Origin: Acaryochloridaceae cyanobacterium VAR_48_metabat_390 | GTDB lineage: Bacteria; Cyanobacteriota; Cyanobacteriia; Thermosynechococcales; Thermosynechococcaceae | Direction: 5' to 3' | Length of the DNA: 14,005 bases | Assembly: GCA_031422435.1 (NCBI GenBank) | Contig: JANPLU010000006.1 | Coordinates: 1-14,005, forward strand | Shown here: in pieces, positions 1-14,005 of the stretch | Numbering within the stretch: the stretch's first letter is position 1 | Layout: the number at the start of each line of letters is the position of its first letter | Program-made: the position numbers and the translations under genes | Notes under the pieces: generated by a model | The model's input: the letters and a program-made list of their open reading frames with translations, nothing else | Database searches by the model: none | Told to the model about the DNA's origin: nothing

Positions 1-2217
1 GGCAAGGCGATCGCCGGAGTCGCTAATCGCCAAGACAGAAAAAGTCTTGGGCTGCGTTTGAAGCGGCTTTTGTAACGTTCCGGTCAATAAATTCCAAACT
101 AAGATTGAGCCATCCCAACTGCCGCTGACCATCACCCGTCCATTTAAGCTCAGAACCAGCGCACTAATCGACTCAAACGATGAACTACTGGGACTGATGC
201 CGCTAGAAAAACTTTTGGTAAGCCGCCCAGTTGCAGTATCCCAAAGCTGAAATTTACCGTCACTACTGCTGCTAATGACCGTTTTACCGTTGGGGAACAT
301 CCCCAGAGCCTGTCCCGAAACTAAGGAATTAGACGGAATGGGGATCTTTTTCCCAGACTTAACATCCTGAAGAAAAAGACTGCCGTCCCAACCACTGCTG
401 ACAAACATTTGCCCGCGACGATCAGTGGCTGCGGCACGAATGGTGCCCTCAAGCCCCCAAGGGTTGTTAGTCGGCAGCGTTGGCAGTAGCGCCTGGGTTT
501 TTAAGTCCCACACTAAGATTTTGCCGCTGATGCTGCTGGTGACAAGGGTTTGCTTATTATCACTAATGCCAACGGAAACAATTGGCTCATAGTGATCTGC
601 AAACGTCTGCTTCAGTTGTCCTGAAGGAAATTCCCAGAGCTTAATGGTCATATCTTTGCTGCCGCTGATCAAAAGCTGGTTATCAATGCTTAGATCGAGC
701 GCTGTAATGGCATCCCAATGCCCACCGCGAGCCACATCAGCAATGGGCTGAGAGTCCGCCGGAAGAACCAAGGTACTCTTCAGCTTTAAATTAACCTTGC
801 TGGCGGCTGGCGACTGCCCCCCCCGCGTTAGGGCGGTCTGTAGAACCGTCCCACCTCTCTGAATCATCTCTACATTAAGATCCGGAAGGAGTAAAATTGC
901 GAGACCTGCTAGCCCAACGGCAACGCAGGCTGCACCCCACACAACCGGATTAGATCGGTTGATCCAAGATACGGTTGATTGCGACGTTTTCGCCACAATC
1001 GGGGGAAGTAACATTGCGGCGGTAGTTTGCAGTGAAGCCGCTCTCTGCTGTCCGCTGCTGCCTATGAGGGATGAGAGGCTCGATGCAGCAGACTGAGGCT
1101 GTCGTGGAAAGGCGGCGACGGCTTTTTTGCGCTGGGTAGGCTTGATAACCCGAGGTGTAGCAGAGGTTGGGCTGAAAACGTCTAGGCCAACGGAAGATCG
1201 GCGATCGCACCAATAGCACCGACCATAAATGCGGCTGTAGTAGTGGTTATTCTCAAGGTGACACATCCGCAGATCGGGAATGGCTAACTTCAGCGCCTCA
1301 CTCCAATCCTGCGCCGAGGGGCGAGCTAGGGGGTTATGGTGCCCCTCCGTGAAGCAGCGCTGAAAGCAAACCTGAAGCTGGGGATGAATAATCGAAAGCG
1401 GAATTGTATTGGGGCCTGGCTGCACCATGCTATTGGGGGCGTAGGGCCAGTGGCCTTGACGAATCAGTTCGGCAGGTTGGGGAGATTCCCCCCGCCCAAT
1501 CCATTTACCCTTAAACGGCTGGTCGCCAAACAGCAGCATAAACACCATCACACCCAGCCGAAACCGATCGTGAATCTCAGTTTGATCAATGGTTGATAGC
1601 TCCTTGCCCAATAGCTCAACAGGCGTAAACCCTTCAGAGCCAACCGGACAGCGATACAGGGTTTGAGTGCGAGGATCTCGCACCTGAAACGAATCTGCAT
1701 CAATCACCGAAATCAGCGCGCGGCTGTTTACTAGCAAATTTTGGGGCTTGATGTCTCCTACCACATAGCCTTCATCGTGAAGCGACTTGAGCGACAGGGC
1801 AAAATTGAGCGCGGCAGTGTGAAGGTAGTACCAATTGAAGCGCGGAGCCTTGCGATTTCTCAATTTTGCGTTGTAAATGAGCGAAAGCTTAACACCATCT
1901 ACAATCTCTGGCATTAAAAAGCCGAGACATTGCCCTCGAACATTTTGAAGCAGATCTTGAGGCCACGCAAACGTCACGTGATGATGATGCCGCATGGGAT
2001 TTTGAGGCGGATGGGCAATCATCACCCTCAGCTTCTCAATGCGATCGGGTGTAGGAGTATGATAGAGCTTGGCTAGAAAACCAGGAAAGTTTGTTGTCCA
2101 GACCGTCCCTTCACCACTGCTTGCCAATTTCTTGTCTAGGACAATGGAGCGACCCGAAATGAGCGCCGTTAAGCCTGCGCCCTCCATTGCTGCATCACCC
2201 ATTGCTACACCACCCAT
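1..2217 (-). CDS. YegI/TerY-P-type Ser/Thr kinase with Cys/His motif, one TM helix and C-terminal WD40 repeats (3' end beyond window, at least 739 codons)
   Basis: Manual translation is open from ATG 2217 (in-frame alternatives 2202, 2187) to base 1. Motifs: LASSGEGTVW (Gly loop), FLAKLY, FAWPQ, GFLMPEI, VGDIKPQNLLV (catalytic loop), IDADSFQ (in place of DFG), GFTPVEL, HDRFRLGV, RPSAQDW; CHLENNHYYSRIYGRCYWC (1207-1263); hydrophobic PVVWGAACVAVGLAGLAILLLP (883-948); WD repeats GHWDAITAL..SGSKDMTIKLWE, DHYEPIVSV..SGKILVWD, SSGWDGSLFLQD, SSSDGKFQLWD, SGSWDGSILVWN. Confidence 0.92.
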   Translation of the reverse strand, partial: MGGVAMGDAAMEGAGLTALISGRSIVLDKKLASSGEGTVWTTNFPGFLAKLYHTPTPDRIEKLRVMIAHPPQNPMRHHHHVTFAWPQDLLQNVRGQCLGFLMPEIVDGVKLSLIYNAKLRNRKAPRFNWYYLHTAALNFALSLKSLHDEGYVVGDIKPQNLLVNSRALISVIDADSFQVRDPRTQTLYRCPVGSEGFTPVELLGKELSTIDQTEIHDRFRLGVMVFMLLFGDQPFKGKWIGRGESPQPAELIRQGHWPYAPNSMVQPGPNTIPLSIIHPQLQVCFQRCFTEGHHNPLARPSAQDWSEALKLAIPDLRMCHLENNHYYSRIYGRCYWCDRRSSVGLDVFSPTSATPRVIKPTQRKKAVAAFPRQPQSAASSLSSLIGSSGQQRAASLQTTAAMLLPPIVAKTSQSTVSWINRSNPVVWGAACVAVGLAGLAILLLPDLNVEMIQRGGTVLQTALTRGGQSPAASKVNLKLKSTLVLPADSQPIADVARGGHWDAITALDLSIDNQLLISGSKDMTIKLWEFPSGQLKQTFADHYEPIVSVGISDNKQTLVTSSISGKILVWDLKTQALLPTLPTNNPWGLEGTIRAAATDRRGQMFVSSGWDGSLFLQDVKSGKKIPIPSNSLVSGQALGMFPNGKTVISSSSDGKFQLWDTATGRLTKSFSSGISPSSSSFESISALVLSLNGRVMVSGSWDGSILVWNLLTGTLQKPLQTQPKTFSVLAISDSGDRLA
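2173..2217 (-). repeat. Three imperfect 15-bp tandem units at the phosphatase/kinase junction
   Basis: ATGGGTGGTGTAGCA / ATGGGTGATGCAGCA / ATGGAGGGCGCAGGC; each unit starts with an in-frame ATG. Confidence 0.7.
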
Positions 2218-3005
2218 TGTTCTTCAGGCAATTCGGCGCTGTAAAGACAGGCTAGCAGCGTTTTATCATCATCCGTTTTTGCGTTCAGCCGTTCTGACTC
2301 GAGGAAGGTTTTGAGATAGCTATAGCGCTCTACCGCGGTGGGCAGTTTGCTCAGACAGTCTTCAAAGGGCTCAAAGAAGGGCGCATAGGGCTGCCAATCT
2401 TGGAGTCGAACGGCAACTCGCTCTAGCCCGTCCGTTGCGGCACATAGAAATGGCGACTGTACTGCCTCTACGCACACACCCATGTAGGCTTTAGCGCCAG
2501 AAGTTGTAACAAAAATGGTTTCGTTGATAAACTCACCCTTGTCAGGCTCAAACAATAGCTGGCAGGGTGCATCTGGGTGGCTGCGCAACATCATAAAGCC
2601 ATCCCCAATTTGCATTGCCGCAACCCAGTCTGGAGTTGCCACAAAGGCCAGCAGGGTACACCCTAAATCTCGGAGTTCGCAGCTGCTAGCAACGGTTTCT
2701 TGATGCAGCGCGCTCAAAATAGTGTCTAGCGCTTGCTCAAAGAGTTCTGGCGCTGCCTGCTCCATTTCTGACCAGGTTGGCAACTGATCAAATCGATGCG
2801 TCACAGCTTGAAAAATCGCTTCTAAGGCAGTTTCGACCGCAATCTGTGCGCCAATCTCCGAATGCTTGGCGCTCCCTGCACCATCCGATACTGCTCCAAA
2901 TAAATAAGGCGCTTCAACGCAATAGTTGCCATAGTCTTGGCAGGGTTGACCCCGCCGTTCGTGGCGGGTTCCAATTGCCGAATGAACCATCGCTTTCCAG
3001 GTCAC
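2205..3005 (-). CDS. PP2C-family (YegK/PphC-like) protein Ser/Thr phosphatase of the TerY-P triad
   Basis: Motifs GTRH..PCQD, AVSDGAGSA, GCTLL, QIGDG, GEFINETIF, ATDGL, TDDDKTL; GTG start with GAGG about 8 nt upstream; lies between vWA and kinase genes. Confidence 0.93.
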   Translation of the reverse strand: MTWKAMVHSAIGTRHERRGQPCQDYGNYCVEAPYLFGAVSDGAGSAKHSEIGAQIAVETALEAIFQAVTHRFDQLPTWSEMEQAAPELFEQALDTILSALHQETVASSCELRDLGCTLLAFVATPDWVAAMQIGDGFMMLRSHPDAPCQLLFEPDKGEFINETIFVTTSGAKAYMGVCVEAVQSPFLCAATDGLERVAVRLQDWQPYAPFFEPFEDCLSKLPTAVERYSYLKTFLESERLNAKTDDDKTLLACLYSAELPEEQWVV

Positions 3006-3055
3006 GAGTCATCCTCAAGGGGTAATAGGGGTGCTAAAGCAATTCTTAAACGGGA

Positions 3056-3721
3056 TTAGGTTGTAATTTGTCCCCATCCCACAGGTGGTAGCGCCACCAT
3101 TTCCCCCCCGACCGTGCTGGTTGAAACCCGCACCATTGAATCACTCAGCCACAAAAACATAGATCGAAAATCTAGCCCATTTAGCATTAAGGGCGGACGC
3201 ATGGGCGGTGCAATTTGGCGCAGAGTATTCATGTCTGCACCCTGAACGCCAACCGCAAAAAATGAAAGTTTACGCTGCTGCTCGGCATCCTGAAGTCTTT
3301 GAGCCGCCTGGAGCCACGGTGAACCTGGATTGGGAGCGCCATCGGTGATTAGAAAAACCCAAGGTCGATAATACTGAATGCCGTTGTTGCGATAGGTGGC
3401 CTTTCGCGTTTCGAGCAGATCGAGTCCAAAGGAAATGGCTTCACCAATGGGCGATAGGCCATTGGCGACTAGGTGGGGTGGAATCATCTGGTCAATGGTC
3501 ACAAAATCCTGCACCAGCTCTACGGGGCCAAAGCTGACGACTGCTACGTCTACGCGCAGGGCGGCCTGCTCATCCTGAATAACTGCTTCTCGAAACGTCT
3601 TTAACCCTTCGTTGAGCGCATCAATGGGCGCTCCACTCATAGAGCCTGAGGTATCGACCAGTAAGATCACTGGGCAGCGGTTTTCTGGATTTTCAACAAA
3701 TTCAGGTTGTCCGACAATCAT
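3056..3721 (-). CDS. TerY/YegL-like von Willebrand factor A (vWA) domain protein
   Basis: EFVENPENRCPVILLVDTSGSM (MIDAS DxSxS), YYRPWVFLITDG, FFAVGV, MFLWLSDSM. Start placed at ATG 3721 (alternative 3745) rather than the track's 3850, whose extension crosses an intergenic hairpin. Confidence 0.92.
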   Translation of the reverse strand: MIVGQPEFVENPENRCPVILLVDTSGSMSGAPIDALNEGLKTFREAVIQDEQAALRVDVAVVSFGPVELVQDFVTIDQMIPPHLVANGLSPIGEAISFGLDLLETRKATYRNNGIQYYRPWVFLITDGAPNPGSPWLQAAQRLQDAEQQRKLSFFAVGVQGADMNTLRQIAPPMRPPLMLNGLDFRSMFLWLSDSMVRVSTSTVGGEMVALPPVGWGQITT

Positions 3722-3822
3722 TGAGGGTTCCAGTGATGGAGGCATTTGAAAAAATGAAGCGAGATAGATTTGTTTTAGAGGTGTTTTGCACTCTACCTTG
3801 TTGTGTTTCAATACGCTCTCTA

Positions 3823-3844
3823 TTTTGGCAGTCGTCTGCCAAAA
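3823..3844. other. Perfect 9-bp hairpin (inner stem of a larger structure, 3778-3861) just downstream of the rel stop
   Basis: TTTTGGCAG-TCGT-CTGCCAAAA. No U-tract follows on the minus strand, so it is not a canonical intrinsic terminator. Confidence 0.6.
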
Positions 3845-3865
3845 GTGCAAAGTATCACCTCAAAT

Positions 3866-6154
3866 TCAGTCTTGAGGTTGGTTGAGGCGACGCAGATTCA
3901 GCACATCGCTCATTTTGCGAACTTGGGCAAAGATTTGCTCAAGTTGATTGTAGTGCTCAATGTCTAAGCCTAGATGAATCAGCGCTGGACGGCCTGGGAA
4001 GGTCTTAACTTGAGCATTGTGAACATTGACCTTACTGTCGGTGAGGCGAGTCAGAATATCTTTCAGCACACCCACTCGATCCAACACTTCAATCTGAATT
4101 TCAACGGGATAGGTGGGTCGGCGTCCTTTATTTTGAGTGCTGGTGTTCCATCGGACGGGGATGAGGCGATCGCCAGGTATCACGTCCACATTTGAGCAGC
4201 CCTGACGGTGAACCGAGATGCCGCGACTGCTAAGCGTCACCACGCCAATGATTGGCTCCCCTGGCACAGGCAGGCAGCAGCCTGCAATGTGGTGCATAAG
4301 TCCTTCTATCCCTAAAATAGGGGCGTCGCTGGGCGCAGATGGCGGCGGTGTATTTCGGTTAAGAGCATGAGTCGCAGTAGGCAGCAACACGCTATCTGCG
4401 GCGATGCCCATCTCGAGTTTGAGATCTTGAGGCTGAAGTTTATGAATGGTTTCGCGCAGGCGATTCACCACCAGATTAAGAGTGACTTCGCCATAGCCTA
4501 AGCCTGCCAGCAAATCTTCTGGTGCCTGGTAATTACATCGTTCTGCTACAGACTGCATGGGTTCAGACTTAAGGAGCGCATCAAAGCCGCTCTTGCCCAT
4601 TTCTTTTTCCAGCATTTCTCGTCCGCGCAGCACATTTTCTTCCCGCCGCGATCGCTTGTACCACTGCCGGATCCGGTTGCGCGCAGACGTGGTGGTGACA
4701 AAATTGAGCCAGTCCAAACTCGGATGGGCGTTTTTCTGGGTCATCACCTCTACAATGTCGCCATTTTTGAGGGGGGTGTCGAGCGGCACCATGCGACCGC
4801 TCACCCGCGCTCCACAGCAGTGATTCCCCACTTCCGTATGGATGCGATAGGCAAAATCGACGGACGTGGCACCCTGGGCCAAAGAAATGAGATCGCCCTT
4901 GGGGGTAAAAACGTACACCTCACTGTCAAACAGATTGGCCTTAATATCGTCCAGATATTCTTGAGCGTCCGTTTCCTTAAGATCGCTCTGCCACTCTAAA
5001 AGCTGCCGCAGCCAGGTAAATTTATCGTCCTTGGCATTCCACTGGCTAGGCAATGAATTGCCCGACTCTTTATATTTCCAGTGGGCGGCAATGCCGTACT
5101 CAGAAATATGGTGCATCTCTAGGGTGCGGATCTGCACCTCTAAGGGTCGACCATTGGAGCCAATGACGGAGGTGTGTAAAGACTGGTAGCGATTGGGCTT
5201 GGGTAGGCCAATATAGTCCTTAAAGCGCCCAGGAATAGGACGGAAGCAGTCATGCACCACTGCTAAGGCGCGATAGCACTCGTCATTCGACTTCACAATC
5301 ACCCGGACTGCAGACACGTCAAAAATTTCGTGGAATTCTTTTTGCTGACGCGCCATCTTTTGAAAAATGCCGTACAGATGCTTAGGGCGACCGTTTAGCT
5401 CTAAATGCCCTAAACCTAGAGGCTCTAGGCGCTGCTGTAAAATTTGAATCACCTCTGCCAAGCTGTCTTCACGGGTCGTCCGCTTTTCGGTGACAAGCTG
5501 CTGCATGTGGCGATAGGCATCTGGCTCAAGGTACTTAAACGAGAGATCTTCAAGCTCCCACTTAAACCGCCAAATGCCAAGGCGATTGGCGAGGGGCGCA
5601 AACACGTCTCGAGTTTCTTGAGCAATGCGACGGCGCTTTTCGTCGGCAAGGTGCTCTAGGGTGCGCATGTTGTGTAGGCGGTCGGCGAGCTTTACCACGA
5701 TGACACGGATATCCTTTGCCATCGCCATAAACATGCGGCGAAAGTTCTCGGCCTGACGTTCGGTCTTGGTCGAGAAGTTAAAGGTCGAAAGTTTGGTGAC
5801 GCCCTCCACTAGCTCTCTCACTTCTGTGCCAAAGGCCGCTTCTAAATCTTCTGAAGTAATGTCAGTATCTTCAACGACATCGTGTAAAAAGCCAGCGGCA
5901 ATCATTGCGGCACTGCCGCCCAGGTCACGCAGTAACCCTGCCACTGCTACGGGGTGAGCGATGTAGGGTTCTCCAGAGGCACGAACTTGACCTTGATGGA
6001 GCTGATACCCAAAGTTGAAGGCTTTACAGATTAGCGCTCGATCTTTCTCTTCAGCACTAGATTGTTCAAATGCGCCAGGCAACAGACAGCGCTGAAGCCA
6101 GTCTGGGAGTTCAACGTCTGAAGAAGCGGAATGAGCAGCAGCCGTCACATTCAT
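3866..6154 (-). CDS. rel: Bifunctional (p)ppGpp synthetase/hydrolase (long RSH, Rel/SpoT)
   Basis: R.SGEPYIAHP, LHDVVEDT (intact HD hydrolase), KLADRLHNMRTL, GRPKHLYGI, RFKDYIGLPKPNRYQSLHT, EVQIRT, YGIAAHWKYKE, TGS domain (VFTPKG..VDFAYRIHTEVG), CC..PG..HRQGC zinc-finger region, C-terminal ACT domain (DRVGVLKDI). Confidence 0.98.
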   Translation of the reverse strand: MNVTAAAHSASSDVELPDWLQRCLLPGAFEQSSAEEKDRALICKAFNFGYQLHQGQVRASGEPYIAHPVAVAGLLRDLGGSAAMIAAGFLHDVVEDTDITSEDLEAAFGTEVRELVEGVTKLSTFNFSTKTERQAENFRRMFMAMAKDIRVIVVKLADRLHNMRTLEHLADEKRRRIAQETRDVFAPLANRLGIWRFKWELEDLSFKYLEPDAYRHMQQLVTEKRTTREDSLAEVIQILQQRLEPLGLGHLELNGRPKHLYGIFQKMARQQKEFHEIFDVSAVRVIVKSNDECYRALAVVHDCFRPIPGRFKDYIGLPKPNRYQSLHTSVIGSNGRPLEVQIRTLEMHHISEYGIAAHWKYKESGNSLPSQWNAKDDKFTWLRQLLEWQSDLKETDAQEYLDDIKANLFDSEVYVFTPKGDLISLAQGATSVDFAYRIHTEVGNHCCGARVSGRMVPLDTPLKNGDIVEVMTQKNAHPSLDWLNFVTTTSARNRIRQWYKRSRREENVLRGREMLEKEMGKSGFDALLKSEPMQSVAERCNYQAPEDLLAGLGYGEVTLNLVVNRLRETIHKLQPQDLKLEMGIAADSVLLPTATHALNRNTPPPSAPSDAPILGIEGLMHHIAGCCLPVPGEPIIGVVTLSSRGISVHRQGCSNVDVIPGDRLIPVRWNTSTQNKGRRPTYPVEIQIEVLDRVGVLKDILTRLTDSKVNVHNAQVKTFPGRPALIHLGLDIEHYNQLEQIFAQVRKMSDVLNLRRLNQPQD

Positions 6155-6247
6155 GGCAGAGCGCAGGGTTTAAGAGGTTGGATGATTTAGAAAAGCAGTG
6201 GTGCTGAGAAGATAAGCTTGGCGCGAAGATAAAAACTTAAGGGAACG

Positions 6248-6281
6248 AAGCATACCAAAATGCTTTGCTTTTTTTATTCTA
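6248..6281 (-). promoter_or_regulatory. Candidate -10 (TAGAAT, 6276-6281) for rel with downstream inverted repeat AAGCAT-N6-ATGCTT (6248-6265)
   Basis: Seen in the AT-rich divergent rel/patD spacer; function inferred only. Confidence 0.3.
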
Positions 6282-6894: not shown

Positions 6895-8130
6895 GTGAAG
6901 CTTCAGGTTGGCTTCTTTTTAATGCTCACGGGATGCTCCTTAGCATTGGGCCTCTGGATGCGCGATCGCCTCATCACCCAGCCGCCCCACGCCCAGCTTT
7001 CCATGACGAGCAATGGCGTGGAAAGCCTTCCCGTGGAAGATTACGGCGGGCATCTGTATCTTCAGGGTAAAGTCAACGGTATTTCTACAAAAGACCTGAT
7101 TTTAGACAGTGGAGCCGCTGATGTCTTTATCAGTGAATCCCAGGCAAAAATCCTAGGGCTTCAGTCTCAAGGCAAAGTCAATATCCCGAGGAGATCCACA
7201 ACCATTCCAACGACCTATATCCCTAACGTCTCCCTTCAGTTAGGCGGCTCGTTAGTGCTGAAAGATCACACCTCTGTTGTGATTCCCCAGGCTAAGGTCA
7301 AAGGGTTAGAGCAATATTTCGGACGGGCAGTCAGCGGAATCATCGGCTATGAGCTATTTGAGCAGACTGTCGTTGAGCTAGACTACCAGCTTCAAACGCT
7401 GCGGCTTCACCGCCCTCAAACCTATCAATATCGGGGCAATGGACAGCGTATTCCTTTGATGATTGAGGGCGATCGCCCCTACATTAACGCCACCATTACG
7501 CCCTACGGCTACCCAGCCCTGCCCAGCAAGCTCATGGTTGACCTGGGCAGTAATACGGCGCTTTCATTGACGGCAGCCTGCGGTTTAGATCAGCGGCTCA
7601 TTGCGGCAGTCCCCCGCACCCTGCGGCGGAACCTTGCCACCCTTCAGGGTGTGGACGAAATTGTGTTAGGACGGGTACAAAGCTTAAATATTGGGTCAAT
7701 TTTGCTAAAGCAGCCCATCGCAATTTTGGGTAGAGCAGGCACAGGAGACTGCGATCGCCTCTTCGGCAAAATTGGCTATCAAATTTTGCGGCAGTTTAAG
7801 GTGATTTTAGATTATCCCCATCGTCAGCTTATTCTAGAACCACGTCTCCCGATCCTCTATGACTATGACCTCAGTGGGCTATGGCTAGAGGCGACTGGCG
7901 CACAACTCACCCAGTACCGCGTGGGTGCAGTTACAAAAAACACACCTGCCGCAACAGCAGGTGTGGAAATTGGAGATCGGGCTGTAGAGATTAACGGCAT
8001 CCCTACATCCGCACAAACCTTAGTCAAAATTCGACAGCAGTTAAGTCAGGTTGGACAGACCGTAACGCTACGTCTTGAGCGCCAGAAGAAGCAGTTTTTA
8101 GTGTATCTAAAGCTCCAGCCGCTGCTCTAA
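6895..8130 (+). CDS. Exported or membrane-anchored aspartyl protease with two retropepsin-like domains and C-terminal PDZ
   Basis: N-terminal hydrophobic segment; LILDSGA and GIIGYELF (domain 1); LMVDLGS and GKIGYQIL (domain 2); PDZ-like SGLWL..V..NTPAATAGVEIGD..VEING. GTG start. Confidence 0.88.
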   Translation: MKLQVGFFLMLTGCSLALGLWMRDRLITQPPHAQLSMTSNGVESLPVEDYGGHLYLQGKVNGISTKDLILDSGAADVFISESQAKILGLQSQGKVNIPRRSTTIPTTYIPNVSLQLGGSLVLKDHTSVVIPQAKVKGLEQYFGRAVSGIIGYELFEQTVVELDYQLQTLRLHRPQTYQYRGNGQRIPLMIEGDRPYINATITPYGYPALPSKLMVDLGSNTALSLTAACGLDQRLIAAVPRTLRRNLATLQGVDEIVLGRVQSLNIGSILLKQPIAILGRAGTGDCDRLFGKIGYQILRQFKVILDYPHRQLILEPRLPILYDYDLSGLWLEATGAQLTQYRVGAVTKNTPAATAGVEIGDRAVEINGIPTSAQTLVKIRQQLSQVGQTVTLRLERQKKQFLVYLKLQPLL

Positions 8131-9524
8131 GCCGATAGCTGTAGAGGCGGTCGAGCCGGAATGGGTTCTGCTAAAACATGGACAGGTCGATCTATGAGCG
8201 ACCCGACTAGGAGGCGACGATACAAATCACTAAGCTGCGCTGCAACGCCCGTCCAGCTGAAGTTTTCCTTTACCCAGGTGGTAGCCTGCATTCTCACTTG
8301 AGCCGACCAGTGAGACTGGGTTAAAACCTGCTCCATCGCTGCGGCAAAACCCTGTATATCTTGAGGTGCTACCAATAGCCCTGTTTCTTCAGGAACCACC
8401 GTAAACTTTAAGCCCCCCACGTTTGAGGCAATCACAGGCGTACCGCAGGCCATTGCCTCAATGGCAACTAACCCAAACGGTTCATAGTGACTAGGAATCA
8501 CGCAAACGTCCGCAGCGGTGTAGTACAACGGCAGACGGTCATGCCCCACTTGACCCGCAAACGTTGTGTTATCAGCAATACCCAGTTCTGCAACCAATGC
8601 CTCAATGCGCAATCGCTCATCGGCATCGGCTTGCCCAGGCTGACAGCCCCCCACAATTACAAGCCGGAGTGTTACTTTAAGCGCATCTTCGGTTTGGTCA
8701 TACAGTTGAGCAAAAGCCCTGACTAGGGTTTCAATGCCCTTACGCGGGTCAAATCGCCCCACGTAGACGACTACTTTTTCATCTGCGCCAAACCCTAGGG
8801 TTGATCTTGCGTCTGATTGAGGCATCAGGTGAAACGTTTCTACGTCAGTGCCACAGGGGATGACTTCTACATAGCCGTCTTTTGACACCAGCGATCGCAG
8901 ATAATCTTGCTCTTGAGGACTGGTCGCCACAACGCAGGCGACCTGCTCTAAAATTTGCTGTTCCATAGCAAGACGAGTCTGAGCAATGGGAGGCCGCGCT
9001 AAATTTTGGTACTTTACTGCGCCCAAAGAATGATAGGTGTGCACAAGCTGGATGTTGCTCACCTGCTTAAGCTGAAGCCCCACCCAGCCCGACATCCAGT
9101 AGTTGGTATGCACCAGAGGGTAGTTACCGCCGTCCTTCGCCTGAAACTTCAGCAGCGACTCTACAAACTCCGGCATGTGCCGAAACAGCTCATCGCGCGG
9201 CACAAAGTGCTCTGGCCCAGCGCTCAGGCGAATAGTGCGACAGTGAGGGGTGTGCTGCACAATGACGGCATCATCTGGTCGCGTCTTGCGCGTAAACATA
9301 TCCACCTGCCACCCTAAACGCGCGAGGGCTTCGCCGACTTTGCGAACATAGACATTTTGCCCACCCGCTTCTTCTCGACCAATATCAGCAGCAGGATCCC
9401 CATGCTCAGAAATGAGGGCGATCGACTGACGAGATGGAATGGAGCGCCGTGAGACGACAAAGGAAGAAGATTTTGATTTTGGACTTTCAAGTCTGGAGCT
9501 GTGGCCTATTAATGTTGTTTGCAT
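8127..9524 (-). CDS. sps: Single-domain sucrose-phosphate synthase (GT4, Anabaena SpsA/SpsB type, no SPP domain)
   Basis: IALISEHGDPAADIGREEAGGQNVYVR, GWQVDMFTR, CRTIRL.AGP, HTNYWMSGWVG, VHTYHSLGAVKY, VVATSPQE, YVGRFDPRKGIETL, PSHYEPFGLVAIEAMACGTPV match recalled cyanobacterial GT-only SPS proteins; sucrose synthase is nearby. Confidence 0.85.
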   Translation of the reverse strand: MQTTLIGHSSRLESPKSKSSSFVVSRRSIPSRQSIALISEHGDPAADIGREEAGGQNVYVRKVGEALARLGWQVDMFTRKTRPDDAVIVQHTPHCRTIRLSAGPEHFVPRDELFRHMPEFVESLLKFQAKDGGNYPLVHTNYWMSGWVGLQLKQVSNIQLVHTYHSLGAVKYQNLARPPIAQTRLAMEQQILEQVACVVATSPQEQDYLRSLVSKDGYVEVIPCGTDVETFHLMPQSDARSTLGFGADEKVVVYVGRFDPRKGIETLVRAFAQLYDQTEDALKVTLRLVIVGGCQPGQADADERLRIEALVAELGIADNTTFAGQVGHDRLPLYYTAADVCVIPSHYEPFGLVAIEAMACGTPVIASNVGGLKFTVVPEETGLLVAPQDIQGFAAAMEQVLTQSHWSAQVRMQATTWVKENFSWTGVAAQLSDLYRRLLVGSLIDRPVHVLAEPIPARPPLQLSA

Positions 9525-9606: not shown

Positions 9607-10686
9607 TTAATGGTTGGTCAACAAAACAGGGGTGCGGCTATGACCATTTTTGGAGGCGACACTAGAAGCCAACTGGCGGTATACGGCTTCATAGCCATCG
9701 GTCATCTGCGTCACGCTAAAGCGAGCCGTAACGTGGTCACGACAAGCCACCCGATTAATCTTGTCAATGTCTCTAACGGCCTGGACACATTCTTCAACGG
9801 TGTTACACAGGTAGCCTGTTTTACCGTGGGCGATCACCTCTGGCGTAGAGCCAAGGCGCATGGCAACCACAGGCGTACCCGCTGCCATAGATTCAATCAT
9901 CACTAGGCCGAAGGGTTCGCGCCAGGTAATGGGGAATAGAGTGGCGATCGCCCGTCCCATCAGCTCGTTCTTCTGAACGTGTTTCGCCTCACCTAAAAAC
10001 TGAATTTGGTGACCATCAATGTGGGGCTTAACCTCACGCTCAAAAAATTCTTCATCTACGGGGTCAACTTTCCCTGCCATTTTTAGCGGCAGTCCGGTTT
10101 TTTGGGCAATGGCGATCGCGTGATGCGGCCCCTTCTCTTGCGACATTCTGCCCAAAAACGCGAGATAGGGCGGCTCATCTGCCGTTGGGAAAAACCGATG
10201 GCGGTTGACATCAATGGCGTTGTAGACCGTCGCCACACAGTTTAGCCCGAGATGCGAATCAACCTGGGAATTAGAAATACTGACGTAAGGCTGCTCTTTA
10301 GCATGGTTAAAAAGCTTAGTGCTATCAGGCGTAAAAATACCGTGCAGCGTATGCACGGTCGGGGTTTTAATCAATTTTGCATAGGGCAGAGCACCAAACC
10401 CCATATGAGAGTGAATAATGTCAAACTCCGCAGCGCGCTGATAAACATGGCTCAGCTGAAGCGCTTCGTAAACGCTATATTCTTTGACTGCCGCATCGAG
10501 TCGTAAAGCCCTGGGATGAATAGAAGACAGCTTTGCCTCAGTCGTAGAATCTCCAGACGCAAACAGCGTCACATCATGACCCCGATTCACCAGTTCATCA
10601 GTGAGTAAACCCACCACCAATTCAATTCCACCGTAGGCAGGAGGGGGAACACTTTCCCATAGGGGCGCAACTTGAGCAATTCTCAT
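9607..10686 (-). CDS. Glycosyltransferase family 4 protein (GT-B fold), substrate unknown
   Basis: MRIAQVAPLWESVPPPAYGGIELVV, VTLFASGDS, HTLHG, FLGRMSQEKG, WREPFGLVMIESMAAGTPV. ATG 10686 has AGGAG upstream and is preferred over the track start at 10716. Confidence 0.93.
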   Translation of the reverse strand: MRIAQVAPLWESVPPPAYGGIELVVGLLTDELVNRGHDVTLFASGDSTTEAKLSSIHPRALRLDAAVKEYSVYEALQLSHVYQRAAEFDIIHSHMGFGALPYAKLIKTPTVHTLHGIFTPDSTKLFNHAKEQPYVSISNSQVDSHLGLNCVATVYNAIDVNRHRFFPTADEPPYLAFLGRMSQEKGPHHAIAIAQKTGLPLKMAGKVDPVDEEFFEREVKPHIDGHQIQFLGEAKHVQKNELMGRAIATLFPITWREPFGLVMIESMAAGTPVVAMRLGSTPEVIAHGKTGYLCNTVEECVQAVRDIDKINRVACRDHVTARFSVTQMTDGYEAVYRQLASSVASKNGHSRTPVLLTNH

Positions 10687-10793
10687 GATCTCTCTCCTTG
10701 AGCTAAACGCCAGCAAAGAAAAAGTTTGTTGTTTCTCTGGCGTTGCTCGATAAAGTTTACTTAAGATTCAGTAAAAACGTCAGTGCTTACGAC

Positions 10794-11325: not shown

Positions 11326-11904
11326 ATGAACGATACAAGACTGAGCTTTGTGTGCATTTTGGGCGCAACGATGGCAGCAAGCTTTACACTCTCCTATCCG
11401 CTTTATGCCCAAGCCTCTGGAGAGGAGGTAAAGCCAATTTCTCCTGGGGGGGTGAAACCTGCCCCTCCTGTGCTGGGAAACCCCAGTCTCGGTACCGCTC
11501 CCTCAACGCCCCTTTCGGCATCACCAGCGCAGGGTTTAGAGGCCAAGTTTGATGGGCTAAGAGATTCCCAAGGGCAAGTTTGCGTCAGCCTTTTTTCTGG
11601 CGCGAATGGGTTCCCCAGTGATAGCAGCCCTGACTTACTCCTCAAACGCTGTACGCCTATTTCTAATCAGATGGCTTCCATTGTGTTCAGCGATCTGAAG
11701 CCTGGAGATTACGCCATGACAGCGTTCCATGATGCTAACAGCGATTCAAAACTAAATAAAGGAGATTTTGGCATTCCAGAAGAAGGCTTTGGATTTTCTA
11801 ATAATCCTGAAATTAGCTTTAGTGCCCCCAGCTTTGCTGAGACTAAGTTTAAGGTTTTAGGCACACCGTCTGTGGTTCAAATCAAGTTCCGCTACATGAA
11901 ATAA
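11326..11904 (+). CDS. DUF2141 family exported protein with Pro-rich linker
   Basis: Signal-like N-terminus ending YAQA; GQVCVSLF...GFP, F.DLKPGDYAMTAFHDANSDSKLN...GIPEEGFGFSNNP...PSFAETKF are typical of DUF2141; GAGG upstream. Confidence 0.88.
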   Translation: MNDTRLSFVCILGATMAASFTLSYPLYAQASGEEVKPISPGGVKPAPPVLGNPSLGTAPSTPLSASPAQGLEAKFDGLRDSQGQVCVSLFSGANGFPSDSSPDLLLKRCTPISNQMASIVFSDLKPGDYAMTAFHDANSDSKLNKGDFGIPEEGFGFSNNPEISFSAPSFAETKFKVLGTPSVVQIKFRYMK

Positions 11905-12022
11905 CTCTTACGAGATATGGCGCAGGGGGTCAGATCCTGGTGCGGCTATAGTGAAAGGGGGAGGCGAAATCTTGAATCTACTTGGATAGTTAGTGTATAC
12001 ATGTTTGCGTCAGAGGATCACT

Positions 12023-14005
12023 ATGTTCAAACTTGTGCAAGCTGTACTCCAAAGTGAGGAAAAATCAGACTTTCGGGAGCTGGTGGCCAAGTTTCGCAGC
12101 ACTGACAGAAAATATCTCCTACGAAACGAGATTTTGCAGGCATTTGAGCAAACATGCCAAGACCTGAATAAGCCTCCCTATTTTTTTCATAGCTCTCGAC
12201 TGGGGGAATTGATTCACCTTACCCATGAAGTTCTTTTAGAGAACGAAACCCTATGGATCATTTTGCGCCCTCGCATTGCGCGGCAGGTTATTTTGCGGGT
12301 ATCTGCCGATCTTAGTAGCGTAGACTCAATGCCCACAGAAGCGCTGCTCGATTTACGCGATCGCCTGGTGAATCGCTACGAGCAGGGCATTCTTGAAATT
12401 GATGTACAGCCCTTTTATGACCTGGACTTAACTATTCAAGATCCGCGCAGTATTGGAGAAGGACTCGCCTGTCTGCACCGATACCTTGCTACAGCGCTGG
12501 GTCAAGACCTCCAACAGTGGATTCAATCTATCTTTGAGGTCTTGCGAGGGCATCACTACGAAGGAATATCTCTGCTCATTAACGACCGCATTAGCAGCGG
12601 TGAGCATTTACAGCAGCAGGTCGGAGAGGCAATTTCCCTGCTGCACCATGCCGCACCCAATACCCCCTACGAAAAGATTCATCTCGATCTCCAGTCAGCA
12701 GGATTTGAGCCAGGTTGGGGCGGAACTGCCGCTCAAGCACTCGCCGCCTTAGAGCTATTGGCTCGACTCCTCCAAAGTCCAGACGTAGGCGTTTTAGAAG
12801 CTTGGATTGCCCGGATACCCACTAGCTTTAAGATTCTTCTCATTTCTATTCATGGATGGGTTGGCCAAGATGGCGTACTGGGTCGGCCAGAGACGGCTGG
12901 ACAGGTAGCCTACGTGCTCGACCAGGCAAGACATTTAGATCTAAAGCTCACGCAAGAAATTAAGGATGCTGGGCTAGATCGGTTTGGCATTCAGCCCAAA
13001 ATTGTAATTTTGACGCGGCTGATCCCAGACTGTGAAGGCACCCAGTGCAGTTTGCCCCAAGAGCAGGTTCAGGGCGCAGAACACACCTGGATTTTACGAG
13101 TGCCGTTCCGAGATCAAGCAGATGCCGTTCTTCAAGAATGGATTTCTAAGTTTGACATTTGGCCTTACCTAGAACGGTTTGCCCATGAAGCCGAAAAAAG
13201 CTTACTCGCTCATTTTCAAGGTAAGCCAGATTTGATGATTGGCAACTATACCGACGGCAACCTTGTGGCGTTTCTGCTGGCGCGTCGGCTCAAAGTGCCC
13301 CACTGCATGATTGCCCATGCCCTTGAAAAACCTAAATACCTCTTTAGCGACCTCTACTGGCAAGACCTCGAAGATCGCTACCATTTTTCCCTACTCTACA
13401 CCGCCGACATTATCGGCATGAACGCGGCTGACTTTATCGTCACCTCTTCTTATCAAGAGATTATGGGCACCCCCGACACCACAGGGCAGTTTGAGTCTTA
13501 CCAAAGCTTTAGTATGCCGCAGCTCTTTCATGTCGTAAACGGCATTGAGCTATGCAGTCCCAAATTCAACGTGGTTCCCCCTGGCATCAACGAGCGTGCG
13601 TTTTTCCCATTCCATCTGACCCAAGAGCGCGTGGTGGGAGAAGGCGATCGCCTCTCTCACCTGCTCTTTACCCAATCAGATGACCAAATCTTGGGCTACT
13701 TCAAAGACCCCGCCAAGCGCCCTATTCTTAACTTTGCCCCCATTAACACTGTCAAAAACCTATCGGGGCTAGTCGAGTGCTTTGGTCGAAGCCCTGAACT
13801 GCAAAGCCGCTGCAATCTGATTGTGCTGACGGGCAAACTGCACCCCAGCGAAGCCATTAACGCAGAAGAACAGTCTGAAATTGAAACCCTGCATAGTCTG
13901 ATTAAGGAGTATGACCTTGAAGGCCATATCCGCTGGATTGGACGCCCCATTTCCAGTATGGATTTAGGTGAGGCCATGCGTGTGTTGGCAGACCATGGCG
14001 GAATT
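12023..14005 (+). CDS. susB: Sucrose synthase, SusB type (3' end beyond window, 661 codons visible)
   Basis: Manual translation: MFKLVQAVLQSEEK..YLLRNEIL..PYFFHSS, RPRIA, LLDLRDRLVNRY, GFEPGWG.TA, ISIHGWVGQDGVLGRPETAGQVAYVLDQA, LTRLIP, ILRVPF, WISKFDIWPYLE, IGNYTDGNLVA, IAHALEKPKY, SPKFNVVPPG. GAGG upstream. N-terminus and loop substitutions resemble recalled SusB rather than SusA. Confidence 0.9.
   Translation, partial: MFKLVQAVLQSEEKSDFRELVAKFRSTDRKYLLRNEILQAFEQTCQDLNKPPYFFHSSRLGELIHLTHEVLLENETLWIILRPRIARQVILRVSADLSSVDSMPTEALLDLRDRLVNRYEQGILEIDVQPFYDLDLTIQDPRSIGEGLACLHRYLATALGQDLQQWIQSIFEVLRGHHYEGISLLINDRISSGEHLQQQVGEAISLLHHAAPNTPYEKIHLDLQSAGFEPGWGGTAAQALAALELLARLLQSPDVGVLEAWIARIPTSFKILLISIHGWVGQDGVLGRPETAGQVAYVLDQARHLDLKLTQEIKDAGLDRFGIQPKIVILTRLIPDCEGTQCSLPQEQVQGAEHTWILRVPFRDQADAVLQEWISKFDIWPYLERFAHEAEKSLLAHFQGKPDLMIGNYTDGNLVAFLLARRLKVPHCMIAHALEKPKYLFSDLYWQDLEDRYHFSLLYTADIIGMNAADFIVTSSYQEIMGTPDTTGQFESYQSFSMPQLFHVVNGIELCSPKFNVVPPGINERAFFPFHLTQERVVGEGDRLSHLLFTQSDDQILGYFKDPAKRPILNFAPINTVKNLSGLVECFGRSPELQSRCNLIVLTGKLHPSEAINAEEQSEIETLHSLIKEYDLEGHIRWIGRPISSMDLGEAMRVLADHGGI

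What the first reader, a model, noticed from the sequence alone, without database searches (positions are those of the whole stretch)
1..3721. TerY-P triad whose kinase looks like a receptor: kinase, Cys/His motif, TM helix, WD40 propeller
Seen: vWA, PP2C and kinase are tightly packed, and the kinase extends through a linker and one hydrophobic helix into at least 5-6 WD40 repeats. Known: vWA-PP2C-kinase triads (TerY-P; E. coli yegL-yegK-yegI) are described as stress or conflict modules, and a TerY-P system has been reported as anti-phage. Inference: an N-in single-pass topology would put the propeller in the periplasm or lumen as a ligand sensor, giving a receptor-kinase switch with its own phosphatase and a vWA substrate or adaptor. 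I do not know of a characterised triad with this sensor. Best candidate for an undescribed system in this window.
Basis: partly seen in the sequence, partly recalled or inferred. Interest (0 to 1): 0.78.

Follow-up and report, generated by a model that had tools for sequence, protein, structure and literature searches.

The report
Membrane receptor kinase triad with WD40
A cyanobacterium carries the same vWA, phosphatase and kinase gene trio as E. coli yegL-pphC-yegI, but its kinase crosses the membrane once and most likely carries a seven-bladed WD40 propeller outside the cytoplasm, a conserved and untested receptor-like form of a signalling module whose trigger is unknown.

Summary
On the minus strand lie a MIDAS-type vWA gene (3721..3056), a PP2C_2 phosphatase (3005..2205) and a Ser/Thr kinase (2217..1, cut by the contig end). 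They match E. coli YegL, PphC and YegI one for one: 51%, 32% and 31% identity.

The kinase has an invariant Cys-His-Cys-Cys zinc ribbon, a disordered linker, and one hydrophobic helix (aa 424-446). That helix is the only one in the protein, is present in 89 of the 120 best homologues, and follows the positive-inside rule in 60 of 63. A WD40 propeller follows, with seven blades in full-length relatives.

An N-in, propeller-out topology is therefore likely but unproven. Sister kinases in other cyanobacteria carry WD40 directly in the cytoplasm.

The architecture is a conserved clade (Acaryochloris, Altericista, Thermosynechococcaceae MAGs), usually spoT-vWA-PP2C-kinase. Across cyanobacteria the same kinase core carries many different tails: TM-WD40, TM-PQQ propeller, TM-TPR, FGE-sulfatase, pilin-like, GUN4 and polytopic.

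I found no defence context and no PADLOC match. The papers I could search describe no such variant.

Verdict: a new variant of a known kind, with moderate interest. This scan has noted TerY-P-like triads on other genomes, including a planctomycete form with a membrane kinase, but none listed with this WD40 tail.

The parts
3056..3721 (-). vWA protein (221 aa from the ATG), a YegL/TerY-type protein with an intact MIDAS motif
   Evidence: Pfam VWA E 2.6e-10. It is 51% identical to E. coli YegL, E 9e-70. In 57 cyanobacterial homologues D23, S25, S27 and D127 are invariant and T90 is at least 90% conserved. The longer TTG ORF reaching 3850 is unlikely to be real, because homologues start at the ATG.
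2205..3005 (-). PP2C_2-family Ser/Thr phosphatase (266 aa), PphC/YegK-like
   Evidence: Pfam PF13672 E 2.6e-47. It is 32% identical to E. coli PphC, E 4e-35. The aspartates D24, D41, D135, D192, D246 and D247 are invariant in 59 homologues.
1..2217 (-). Kinase gene with its 3' end cut by the contig start; 739 of about 804 codons lie in the window
   Evidence: ORF. The window is G000:C6:1-14005. The continuation lies on the end of contig C13. Homologues are 780-800 aa long.
1273..2172 (-). Ser/Thr kinase catalytic domain (aa 16-315), YegI-like
   Evidence: It is 31% identical to E. coli YegI over aa 21-337, E 7e-43. K50, D155, K157, N160, D173 and D175 are invariant. AF2 pLDDT is mostly above 90.
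1183..1272 (-). Zinc-ribbon-like Cys/His module (aa 316-345); C319, H325, C334 and C337 lie at nt 1263..1207
   Evidence: C319, C334 and C337 are invariant and H325 nearly invariant. The alignment to YegI ends at the CxxC. TerY-P kinases are described as fused to a C-terminal zinc ribbon (PMC10542128, passages).
949..1182 (-). Disordered cytoplasmic juxtamembrane linker (aa 346-423), 59% Ser/Thr/Pro/Gln/Ala
   Evidence: pLDDT is 33-43. Mean identity to 62 homologues is only 22%.
880..948 (-). Single transmembrane helix (aa 424-446)
   Evidence: Hydropathy peak 2.42, the only window above 1.6. AF2 makes it a helix. A helix at this position is present in 89 of the 120 best homologues. The N-flank is more positive than the C-flank in 60 of 63.
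727..879 (-). Post-membrane helix (aa 449-465) followed by a disordered linker
   Evidence: AF2 secondary structure and pLDDT. Mean identity to homologues is 19%.
1..726 (-). WD40 propeller: blades 1-5 and the start of blade 6 (aa 498-739); blades 6-7 lie beyond the contig end
   Evidence: Pfam WD40 E 9.1e-24. Foldseek best PDB matches are WDR5 and the PkwA WD40 domain 5yzv_B, E about 1e-18. The full-length homologue model has seven blades.
3866..6154 (-). Context: bifunctional RelA/SpoT (ppGpp) gene directly upstream on the same strand
   Evidence: TIGR00691 E 2.8e-256, with Pfam HD_4, RelA_SpoT, TGS and ACT. The same position is seen in 13 of 16 ortholog loci with enough upstream DNA.

Best explanation
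WHAT IT IS. This is a chromosomal Ser/Thr phospho-switch of the YegL-PphC-YegI (TerY-P) kind, whose kinase is built like a single-pass receptor.

ANATOMY. On the cytoplasmic side are an active-looking kinase domain, a Cys-His-Cys-Cys zinc ribbon and an ~80-residue disordered Ser/Thr-rich linker. One transmembrane helix (N-in) follows, and then a short helix, a linker and a seven-bladed WD40 propeller. By topology the propeller lies outside the cytoplasm, either in the periplasm or, if the protein sits in thylakoids, in the lumen.

MOST LIKELY MECHANISM.
1. The propeller binds a peptide, protein or envelope component.
2. Binding changes the self-association and activity of the kinase.
3. The kinase autophosphorylates and phosphorylates cytoplasmic targets.
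4. The co-encoded MIDAS-bearing vWA protein is the prime candidate target.
5. The PP2C phosphatase resets the switch.

SHOWN: gene content and order, one-to-one homology to the E. coli triad, conserved catalytic, MIDAS and zinc-binding residues, and a conserved hydrophobic helix with the charge bias of an N-in anchor.

INFERRED: the topology, ligand binding by the propeller, the vWA protein as target, and the physiological output.
For: HOMOLOGY TO THE E. COLI TRIAD. vWA 51% (E 9e-70), PP2C 32% (E 4e-35) and kinase plus zinc ribbon 31% (E 7e-43).

CONSERVED FUNCTIONAL RESIDUES.
- Kinase: K50, D155, K157, N160, D173, D175; zinc ligands C319, C334, C337.
- MIDAS: D23, S25, S27, D127.
- PP2C aspartates.

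TRANSMEMBRANE HELIX.
- It is the single hydropathy peak, 2.42, and an AF2 helix at 424-446 between disordered linkers.
- It is present in 89 of the 120 best homologues.
- In 63 aligned members the hydropathy is 1.75-2.78 (median 2.35).
- The N-flank net charge exceeds the C-flank in 60 of 63, is equal in 3 and is lower in 0; the means are +2.1 and -0.6.

SAME SLOT, OTHER MODULES. Related cyanobacterial kinases carry, behind a helix in the same place, a PQQ/BamB-type propeller (L080), TPR, FGE-sulfatase and pilin-like domains. Some Nostocales forms end in a TonB_C domain behind their helix (PF03544, source name 'TonB family protein').

TREE OF KINASE DOMAINS. A TM-WD40 kinase (L060) is sister to the TM-PQQ-propeller kinase (L080) with SH-aLRT 99.

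MEMBRANE PRECEDENT. E. coli YegI is experimentally an inner-membrane protein (bioRxiv 10.1101/819920, passages).

RATES OF CHANGE. The kinase core is 73% identical on average to homologues and the propeller 44%. A conserved enzyme with a faster-changing sensor fits this.
Against: - No experiment bears on this protein.
- Topology rests on hydropathy, charge bias and an AF2 helix. No dedicated topology predictor was available.
- Of the 120 best homologues, 23 have WD40 straight after the zinc ribbon with no strong helix before it, and 7 have WD40 before the helix. In the same kinase family WD40 therefore also works in the cytoplasm.
- The window's propeller is equally similar (about 30-35% identity) to the pre-helix and post-helix propellers of the double-propeller Nostocales forms. 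No 'outside type' of propeller can be recognised.
- The propeller has no cysteine in 61 of 63 homologues, but the cytoplasmic propellers of relatives are equally cysteine-poor. That feature says nothing about location.
- Only structural WD residues are invariant in the propeller, so no conserved ligand site is evident.
Confidence: 0.6

Rival explanations
1. It is an anti-phage defence system of the TerY-P kind. The outward-facing propeller would detect phage attachment or envelope damage. The kinase, phosphatase and vWA trio would then trigger growth arrest or another protective response.
For: - The gene trio has the same composition as the TerY-P system reported to protect against T7-like phages (commentary on Gao et al. 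2020, PMC7699616, passage; PMC10542128, passages).
- Distribution is patchy within the window's own family: the kinase was found in 13 of 20 other genomes and not in genera g2 (0/3) and g3 (0/2).
- The C-terminal modules are swapped often: 29 changes on a tree of 80 kinase domains.
- Some relatives carry FGE-sulfatase (C-type-lectin-like) tails. That domain type is diversified by retroelements in cyanobacterial kinases (PMC7517822, passages).
Against: - PADLOC gives no hit for the vWA or PP2C protein even at E 10. For the kinase it gives only generic PD-T4-6/kinase hits. E. coli YegL and PphC also get none, so this is weak evidence.
- The validated stand-alone system is described with an OB-fold on the kinase, not a membrane helix and propeller.
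- The locus keeps a fixed place beside core genes: spoT upstream in 13 of 16 ortholog loci, and an AmiC-like amidase downstream in 9 of 16.
- No nuclease, restriction, mobile-element or other defence gene lies in the 14-kb window.
Confidence: 0.15
2. The propeller stays in the cytoplasm. The hydrophobic segment would be a peripheral or re-entrant membrane anchor, or a dimerisation helix. The WD40 domain would be a scaffold that recruits cytoplasmic substrates to the kinase, as in the relatives that lack the helix.
For: - 23 of the 120 best homologues have WD40 directly after the zinc ribbon with no helix of KD 1.7 or more before it, for example the 636-aa protein P0118, whose best window scores 0.94.
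- The window's propeller cannot be told apart from such cytoplasmic propellers by sequence or by cysteine content.
Against: - The segment is about 20 uncharged residues with hydropathy 2.42. That length and strength fit a membrane-spanning helix.
- It is kept in 89 of 120 homologues although its sequence drifts; mean identity is 45%.
- The flanking charges follow the positive-inside rule in 60 of 63.
- Disordered linkers on both sides are typical of single-pass receptors.
Confidence: 0.1
3. The trio is a housekeeping regulator of the stringent response or of cell-wall turnover. It would be co-transcribed with spoT and would report envelope state to (p)ppGpp metabolism or to the neighbouring amidase. 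In that case the gene neighbours define its function.
For: - spoT lies directly upstream on the same strand, 144 nt away, in the window and in 13 of 16 ortholog loci.
- In the window's family, spoT and the kinase lie 1.6-1.9 kb apart on the same strand in 7 of the 13 genomes that have the kinase (coordinates).
- A convergent AmiC-like amidase (AMIN + Amidase_3) lies just downstream on C13 and in 9 of 16 ortholog loci.
Against: - The linkage is confined to one clade. No SpoT-like ORF was seen in any of the 60 broader cyanobacterial loci, although those reach only about 0.5-1 kb upstream of the vWA gene.
- The window genome's own second triad, on C101, has different neighbours.
- Conserved order among related genomes can be simple inheritance.
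- The promoter and terminator scans were no better than shuffled sequence.
Confidence: 0.1

Closest known systems
E. coli K-12 yegL-pphC(yegK)-yegI
   Same: The same three proteins in the same order vWA, PP2C, kinase. Identities are 51%, 32% and 31%. The kinase is followed by the same CxxC zinc ribbon. [quoted passage not shown]
   Different: YegI has two transmembrane helices with a short periplasmic loop, both termini in the cytosol, and a cytosolic C-terminal part. The window's kinase has one helix and a WD40 propeller beyond it. In E. coli yegJ lies between pphC and yegI on the other strand. Here the PP2C and kinase genes overlap.
TerY-P (TerY-phosphorylation) triads, including the stand-alone anti-phage TerY-P of Gao et al. 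2020
   Same: A vWA protein, a PP2C phosphatase and a Ser/Thr kinase fused to a C-terminal zinc ribbon (PMC10542128 and PMC4978471, passages).
   Different: - The described triads sit with ter genes, McrBC/CoCoNuT or other DNA-processing modules. None is present here.
- The validated defence form has an OB-fold on the kinase.
- There is no PADLOC match.
- I could not read the founding paper (Anantharaman et al. 2012) or Gao et al. 2020. Either may show kinase architectures that I did not see.
Receptor Ser/Thr kinases with an outside beta-propeller, e.g. Mycobacterium tuberculosis PknD
   Same: An N-terminal intracellular kinase, one transmembrane segment and an extracellular C-terminal beta-propeller sensor whose ligand is unknown (PMC1847690, introduction passage and reference list).
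   Different: This is an analogy, not a membership. PknD is a canonical Hanks kinase and not of the YegI type. From recall, its propeller is of the NHL type with six blades. It is not part of a vWA-PP2C triad.
Bacterial Ser/Thr kinase-WD40 fusions (Thermomonospora PkwA; cyanobacterial 'cbSTKII WD40(7)' proteins)
   Same: A kinase followed by about seven WD40 repeats, common in cyanobacteria (PMC2176072 and PMC1262709, passages). The PkwA WD40 structure 5yzv_B is among the best structural matches of the window's propeller.
   Different: Those surveys list domain content only. PMC2176072 holds no occurrence of 'vWA' or 'von Willebrand', and neither survey treats a helix between kinase and WD40. 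I did not test whether any listed protein has a YegI-type kinase.
Actinobacterial kinase/PP2C/vWA sets next to GAP1-N2 GTPases (Kaur et al. 2020)
   Same: [quoted passage not shown]
   Different: A different phylum and a different neighbourhood (GTPase conflict systems). The passage I saw mentions no WD40 propeller behind the helix.

Membership tests
TerY-P / YegL-PphC-YegI triad | Three adjacent co-directional genes for a vWA protein, a PP2C phosphatase and a Ser/Thr kinase | tested here: met
   The gaps are 50 nt and -13 nt. The same order is seen in all 19 ortholog loci as far as their DNA reaches, and vWA plus PP2C lie upstream in 42 of 60 broader loci.
TerY-P / YegL-PphC-YegI triad | vWA protein of the YegL type with an intact metal-binding MIDAS motif | tested here: met
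   51% identity to YegL, E 9e-70. D23-x-S25-x-S27 and D127 are invariant and T90 nearly so. Similarity to TerY of a ter operon itself was not compared.
TerY-P / YegL-PphC-YegI triad | PP2C-like phosphatase of the PphC type | tested here: met
   PF13672 E 2.6e-47. 32% identity to PphC, E 4e-35. Metal-binding aspartates are invariant.
TerY-P / YegL-PphC-YegI triad | Kinase of the YegI type fused at its C-terminus to a zinc ribbon | tested here: met
   31% identity to YegI up to the CxxC, E 7e-43. C319, C334 and C337 are invariant. The feature is named in PMC10542128.
TerY-P / YegL-PphC-YegI triad | Linkage to ter genes, restriction or other DNA-processing genes (typical context, not strictly required) | tested here: not met
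   The neighbours are spoT, an aspartyl-protease/PDZ protein, two GT4 glycosyltransferases, DUF2141, sucrose synthase and, on C13, an amidase.
Stand-alone anti-phage TerY-P (Gao et al. 2020) | Kinase fused to an OB-fold | tested here: not met
   The feature is as described in PMC10542128. Pfam finds only Pkinase and WD40-type families in the window's kinase, and the model shows a helix and a propeller.
Stand-alone anti-phage TerY-P (Gao et al. 2020) | Match to defence-system profile models | tested here: inconclusive
   There are no PADLOC hits for the vWA or PP2C protein at E up to 10, and only generic PD-T4-6, mad6 and MkoA kinase hits. E. coli YegL and PphC also score nothing. I could not verify which TerY-P models the library holds.
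Stand-alone anti-phage TerY-P (Gao et al. 2020) | Protection against phage | not testable with these tools
   Needs phage challenge of mutants or of a heterologous host.
YegI-type membrane kinase (E. coli topology) | Two transmembrane helices with both termini in the cytosol | tested here: not met
   YegI topology is from 10.1101/819920. The window's kinase has a single hydrophobic helix. Two-helix forms do exist among cyanobacterial relatives (L057, L058).
Single-pass receptor Ser/Thr kinase with outside propeller (PknD-like design) | N-in kinase, one helix, propeller outside the cytoplasm | tested here: inconclusive
   Predicted from hydropathy, charge bias and the model. There is no localisation experiment. 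This is an analogy of design, not homology of the sensor.
WD40 propeller (PF00400 type) | Seven four-stranded blades with WD-type repeats | tested here: met
   PF00400 E 9.1e-24. Foldseek matches WDR5 and PkwA at E about 1e-18. Seven blades appear in the model of the 797-aa homologue. The window itself holds five blades and part of a sixth.

The most novel reading that the evidence does not exclude
In cyanobacteria the vWA-PP2C-kinase triad is a general transmembrane signalling cassette, a bacterial counterpart of receptor-like kinase families. One constant cytoplasmic core (YegI-type kinase with zinc ribbon, its own phosphatase and a vWA partner) is combined again and again with different outside sensors: WD40 or PQQ propellers, TPR, lectin-like FGE-sulfatase and pilin-like domains. 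In the window's clade the WD40 version would read the state of the cell envelope or septal peptidoglycan. It would pass that state to growth control, which would explain its fixed place between spoT and an AmiC-type amidase. This would give the long-unexplained E. coli yegLKI and TerY-P modules an input logic.
Probability: 0.2. Interest if true: 0.75.

Novelty: new variant of a known kind. Interest (0 to 1): 0.5.

Why it matters
The vWA-PP2C-kinase triad is widespread, from E. coli yegL-pphC-yegI to TerY-P in defence and stress islands. In the papers I could read, neither the signal it responds to nor its target is established.

The cyanobacterial family found here offers natural domain-swap experiments. 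The same cytoplasmic core appears with many alternative tails, most of them behind a membrane helix. That argues the triad is a signal-input device rather than a fixed enzyme set.

The WD40 form is conserved. It occurs in named strains with complete genome records (Acaryochloris marina MBIC11017, Altericista sp. CCNU0014), so topology, ligand and targets should be open to direct testing. If the propeller really lies outside the cytoplasm, it would be a canonical WD40 propeller used as an extracytoplasmic sensor in a bacterium, which I found described in none of the papers I could read.

Tried and rejected
- COMPLEX PREDICTION. Kinase aa 1-345, PP2C and vWA, each with its own alignment and with the vWA protein as partner. 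The verdict was 'no answer' (scores 0.01 and 0.00, mark 0.32). This counts neither for nor against binding.
- EXPRESSION. No RNA holder is listed among the 14 public runs that share words with window 1-3800, so nothing can be said about transcription or co-transcription with spoT.
- LAYING CONTIGS. Contigs of four metagenome runs were laid on window 1-2400. They break in the same WD40 region (bases 1-260), and short variant contigs with 7 differences overlap the start. This explains the contig break as strain variation but did not bridge it.
- CYSTEINE DEPLETION as a mark of an exported domain. The propeller has no Cys in 61 of 63 homologues, but cytoplasmic propellers of relatives are equally poor in Cys. 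Rejected as evidence.
- INSIDE VERSUS OUTSIDE PROPELLERS. I tried to tell them apart by similarity to the two propellers of the Nostocales double-propeller forms. Both score about 30-35% identity. Uninformative.
- PROMOTER AND TERMINATOR SCAN of 1-6400. It found 4 and 9 sites against 4.0 and 7.5 expected from shuffles. No information on operon structure.
- NCBIFAM. Only sub-threshold hits for the three proteins.
- LITERATURE. Anantharaman et al. 2012 is not held, and I did not see Gao et al. 2020. I ran these searches:
  - TerY + PP2C + kinase + vWA (1 paper);
  - TerY-P (14 papers, 10 listed);
  - von Willebrand + PP2C + cyanobacteri + WD40 + kinase (2 papers);
  - COG4248 (2 papers);
  - WD40 + kinases + cyanobacteria.
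  No listing or passage I read describes a YegI-type or TerY-P kinase with a helix and a WD40 propeller.
- EARLIER NOTES OF THIS SCAN. There are none for this genome near the locus.

Full report
WHAT IS IN THE SEQUENCE

The window is bases 1-14005 of contig C6 of a 3.7-Mb, 136-contig genome. On the minus strand lie four co-directional genes:
- a RelA/SpoT gene, 6154..3866;
- a vWA gene, 3721..3056 from its ATG;
- a PP2C gene, 3005..2205;
- a kinase gene, 2217..1, which runs off the contig.

Pfam gives these matches:
- VWA, E 2.6e-10;
- PP2C_2, E 2.6e-47;
- Pkinase, E 8.4e-9, 35.6 bits against a cut-off of 31.7, aa 127-237;
- WD40, E 9.1e-24, with many propeller families over aa ~498-739.

The gaps are 144 nt (spoT to vWA) and 50 nt (vWA to PP2C). 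The PP2C and kinase genes overlap by 13 nt.

THE TRIAD IS THE E. COLI yegL-pphC-yegI TRIAD

Against E. coli K-12 (locus) the results are:
- the vWA protein is 51% identical to YegL, E 9e-70;
- the phosphatase is 32% identical to PphC, E 4e-35;
- kinase aa 21-337 is 31% identical to YegI, E 7e-43.

The kinase alignment ends exactly at the shared CxxC.

The functional residues are conserved in cyanobacterial homologues:
- the kinase residues K50, D155, K157, N160, D173 and D175 are invariant;
- the Cys/His module C319-x5-H325-x8-C334-x2-C337 has its three cysteines invariant and H325 nearly so;
- the MIDAS residues D23, S25, S27 and D127 are invariant;
- the PP2C metal-binding aspartates are invariant.

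All three proteins therefore look active. The literature describes TerY-P as a TerY-like vWA protein, a PP2C enzyme and a Ser/Thr kinase fused to a C-terminal zinc ribbon (PMC10542128, passages).

THE KINASE TAIL

A hydropathy scan of the 739 residues finds a single stretch above 1.6. Its peak is 2.42 at aa 425-443, and the next best window anywhere scores 1.28.

AlphaFold2 with a 63-row alignment (mean pLDDT 81.4) gives:
- a confident kinase plus ribbon, aa ~15-345;
- a disordered linker, 346-418, pLDDT 33-43, 59% Ser/Thr/Pro/Gln/Ala;
- a helix at 424-446;
- a second helix at 449-465;
- another disordered stretch, 466-497;
- a beta-propeller from aa 504.

Foldseek places the propeller with WDR5 and the bacterial PkwA WD40 domain, E about 1e-18.

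The window holds five blades and the start of a sixth. The missing end is on contig C13:
- its last 102 bases are 93% identical to window 1-102;
- the frame continues for about 65 residues to a stop;
- those 99 residues align with the last 101 residues of the 797-aa homologue P0001 at 82% identity, ending on the same residues;
- the gene next to it on C13, an AMIN + Amidase_3 amidase, is the gene found just downstream of the kinase in relatives.

The full-length model of P0001 shows 28 strands in seven blades. Public metagenome contigs break in the same place and include a variant with 7 differences. The contig break is therefore an effect of strain variation in a repeat-rich region and not a gene end.

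IS THE HELIX A MEMBRANE ANCHOR, AND WHICH WAY ROUND?

I classified the 120 best database homologues (534 hits in all) by hydropathy and by position of the kinase and WD40 matches:
- 89 have kinase, helix, WD40, like the window;
- 23 have WD40 directly after the ribbon with no helix of 1.7 or more before it;
- 7 have WD40 before a helix;
- 1 is a fragment.

In the 63 aligned members of the window's type:
- the helix scores 1.75-2.78, median 2.35;
- the 15 residues before it carry more net positive charge than the 15 after it in 60 cases, the same in 3 and less in none (means +2.1 and -0.6).

The kinase needs ATP, so this points to N-in, propeller-out.

Two further arguments failed their controls. 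The propeller lacks cysteine in 61 of 63, but so do the clearly cytoplasmic propellers of relatives. The window's propeller is also equally similar to the pre-helix and post-helix propellers of Nostocales double-propeller proteins. No dedicated topology predictor was available.

I put the N-in, propeller-out topology at about 0.8. Whether the membrane is the plasma membrane or the thylakoid cannot be told.

THE WIDER FAMILY

The kinase-plus-ribbon part finds a match (E <= 1e-20) in 108 of 401 sampled genomes of the phylum. In the window's own family the whole protein finds a match in 13 of 20 other genomes, with none found in genera g2 (0/3) and g3 (0/2).

Named relatives of the window's type include Acaryochloris marina MBIC11017, Altericista sp. 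CCNU0014, Petrachloros mirabilis, Stenomitos, and Thermosynechococcaceae and Acaryochloridaceae MAGs. In these 19 loci:
- the order vWA-PP2C-kinase holds wherever the DNA reaches;
- spoT lies directly upstream in 13 of the 16 loci with at least 2.5 kb upstream;
- the amidase lies convergently downstream in 9 of the 16 loci with at least 1.2 kb downstream.

I then fetched 60 further cyanobacterial loci, chosen by me from the match rows: the 40 best outside the window's genome, 16 from the middle band and 4 from other classes. Among them:
- vWA and PP2C genes lie upstream on the same strand in 42 of 60;
- a helix of 1.6 or more follows the kinase in 40 of 60.

The tails differ widely: helix-WD40 (8), WD40 without or before a helix (9), helix-PQQ/BamB-type propeller (1), TPR with or without a helix (8), FGE-sulfatase (5), pilin-like (2), GUN4 (3), six to seven helices (4), one to four helices only (8), short or unrecognised tails, one vWA-kinase fusion and one pseudogene.

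A maximum-likelihood tree of 80 kinase domains was built from 59 of the 60 loci (pseudogene L094 dropped), the 19 ortholog loci, the window and its own paralogue. It shows:
- the tail classes need at least 29 changes, against a minimum of 12 and a shuffled mean of 50;
- helix-WD40 needs 6 changes, at least 4 of them forced by well-supported branches;
- the window sits in a clade of 19 rows that are all helix-WD40;
- elsewhere a helix-WD40 kinase (L060) is sister to the helix-PQQ-propeller kinase (L080) with support 99.

The class labels were assigned by hand.

The genome also has a second triad, on contig C101, whose 439-aa kinase has the ribbon but no helix or propeller (55% identity).

HOW IT MOST LIKELY WORKS

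The best-supported reading is a single-pass receptor kinase. An outside propeller binds a partner. The kinase inside is switched, probably through self-association, autophosphorylates the Ser/Thr-rich linker or activation loop, and phosphorylates targets. The PP2C reverses this. The vWA protein, the most conserved of the three (68% mean column identity), is the likely target or adaptor.

The kinase core is far more conserved than the propeller (73% against 44% mean identity to the window), as expected of a constant enzyme with an adaptable sensor.

Everything after 'a helix is there' is inference.

The closest design analogue is M. tuberculosis PknD, a receptor kinase with an extracellular beta-propeller sensor of unknown ligand (PMC1847690, passage). 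That is a resemblance of design only.

DEFENCE OR HOUSEKEEPING?

TerY-P has been reported as an anti-phage system (PMC7699616, passage), and in that form the kinase carries an OB-fold. Against a defence role here:
- PADLOC gives nothing for the vWA and PP2C proteins even at E 10, and only generic kinase hits. The E. coli proteins also score nothing, so this is weak evidence.
- The neighbourhood holds no nuclease, restriction or mobile gene.
- The locus keeps its place beside core genes across two families.

I therefore rate defence at about 0.15.

The spoT and amidase neighbours could hint at envelope or growth control. However, the linkage is confined to one clade: no SpoT-like ORF was seen in the 60 broader loci, which reach only 0.5-1 kb upstream of the vWA gene. 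It may simply be inherited gene order.

KNOWN OR NEW?

Already in print:
- the triad;
- a membrane-bound YegI with two helices and both ends in the cytosol;
- triad kinases 'fused to TM helices' in actinobacteria (PMC7159879, passage);
- cyanobacterial Ser/Thr kinases with seven WD40 repeats (PMC2176072 and PMC1262709, passages).

Source databases name the homologues only 'WD40 repeat protein/serine/threonine protein kinase', 'hypothetical protein' or similar.

My searches found no description of a YegI-type triad kinase with a helix and a WD40 propeller, or of the modular cyanobacterial family. I could not read Anantharaman et al. 2012 or Gao et al. 2020, which may show related architectures.

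This scan has noted TerY-P-like triads on other DNA before, including a planctomycete form with a membrane kinase, but none listed with this tail.

My verdict is a new variant of a known kind: real, conserved and testable, and of moderate interest.

Noticed in passing
own genome, contig C101:60491-63314 (minus strand): A second, paralogous vWA-PP2C-kinase triad in the same genome. Its 439-aa kinase has the same Cys/His ribbon but no helix and no WD40. The kinase domain is 55% identical to the window's. Its neighbours differ (glpX-like, hemA, a PPM phosphatase, an ABC1 kinase).
   Followed up: partly
window 3866-6154 (-) and ortholog loci L034-L052: The RelA/SpoT gene lies directly upstream of the triad on the same strand in 13 of 16 ortholog loci. 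In the window's family it lies 1.6-1.9 kb from the kinase in 7 of the 13 genomes that have the kinase. It was not seen in the 60 broader cyanobacterial loci.
   Followed up: partly
own genome contig C13:5727-6920 (+); L037:9407-10621, L045:9408-10517 and others: An AmiC-like cell-wall amidase (AMIN + Amidase_3) lies convergently just downstream of the kinase in 9 of 16 ortholog loci and on C13. This supports C13 as the continuation of the window's contig.
   Followed up: partly
window 1-260 and contig C13:7156-7257: The assembly breaks inside the WD40 repeats. The two contig ends overlap at 93% identity, and public metagenome contigs break at the same place with a variant form. This suggests that two close strains were co-assembled.
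   Followed up: partly
proteins P0069, P0082, P0078, P0087, P0088 (Nostocales); P0028, P0036, P0037; P0111, P0112, P0116: There are further architectures of the same kinase: kinase-WD40-helix-WD40 (propellers predicted on both sides of the membrane), two tandem kinase domains before the helix and WD40, and kinase-WD40-helix-TonB_C.
   Followed up: partly
L095:15-3629 (+): A 1204-aa protein fuses about 600 unassigned residues, a YegL-like vWA domain and the YegI-like kinase in one chain, with no separate PP2C gene seen nearby.
   Followed up: no
L086:4021-5442, L087:1067-2527, L091:1215-2570, L088:3990-5072: In several triads the PP2C protein is lengthened to 360-486 aa by an unassigned C-terminal part. 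The partner kinases are short with a C-terminal helix, or carry pilin-like tails.
   Followed up: no
L084, L085, L089, L090, L092: YegI-type kinases in one family end in FGE-sulfatase (C-type-lectin-like) domains. This is the domain type reported as the target of diversity-generating retroelements in cyanobacterial kinases (PMC7517822, passages). I did not check whether these are such targets.
   Followed up: no
window 8127-14005: A sugar-metabolism cluster: two GT4 glycosyltransferases (8127..9524 and 9607..10716, minus strand), a DUF2141 protein (11326..11904) and a sucrose synthase that runs off the window end (11993..14005). G+C falls to 0.43-0.45 around 10-11.5 kb.
   Followed up: no
window 6260-6697 (+) and 6895-8130 (+): A 145-aa ORF without a Pfam match lies divergent from spoT. 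A similar ORF lies beside spoT in L034. It is followed by a secreted-looking aspartyl-protease/PDZ protein.
   Followed up: no
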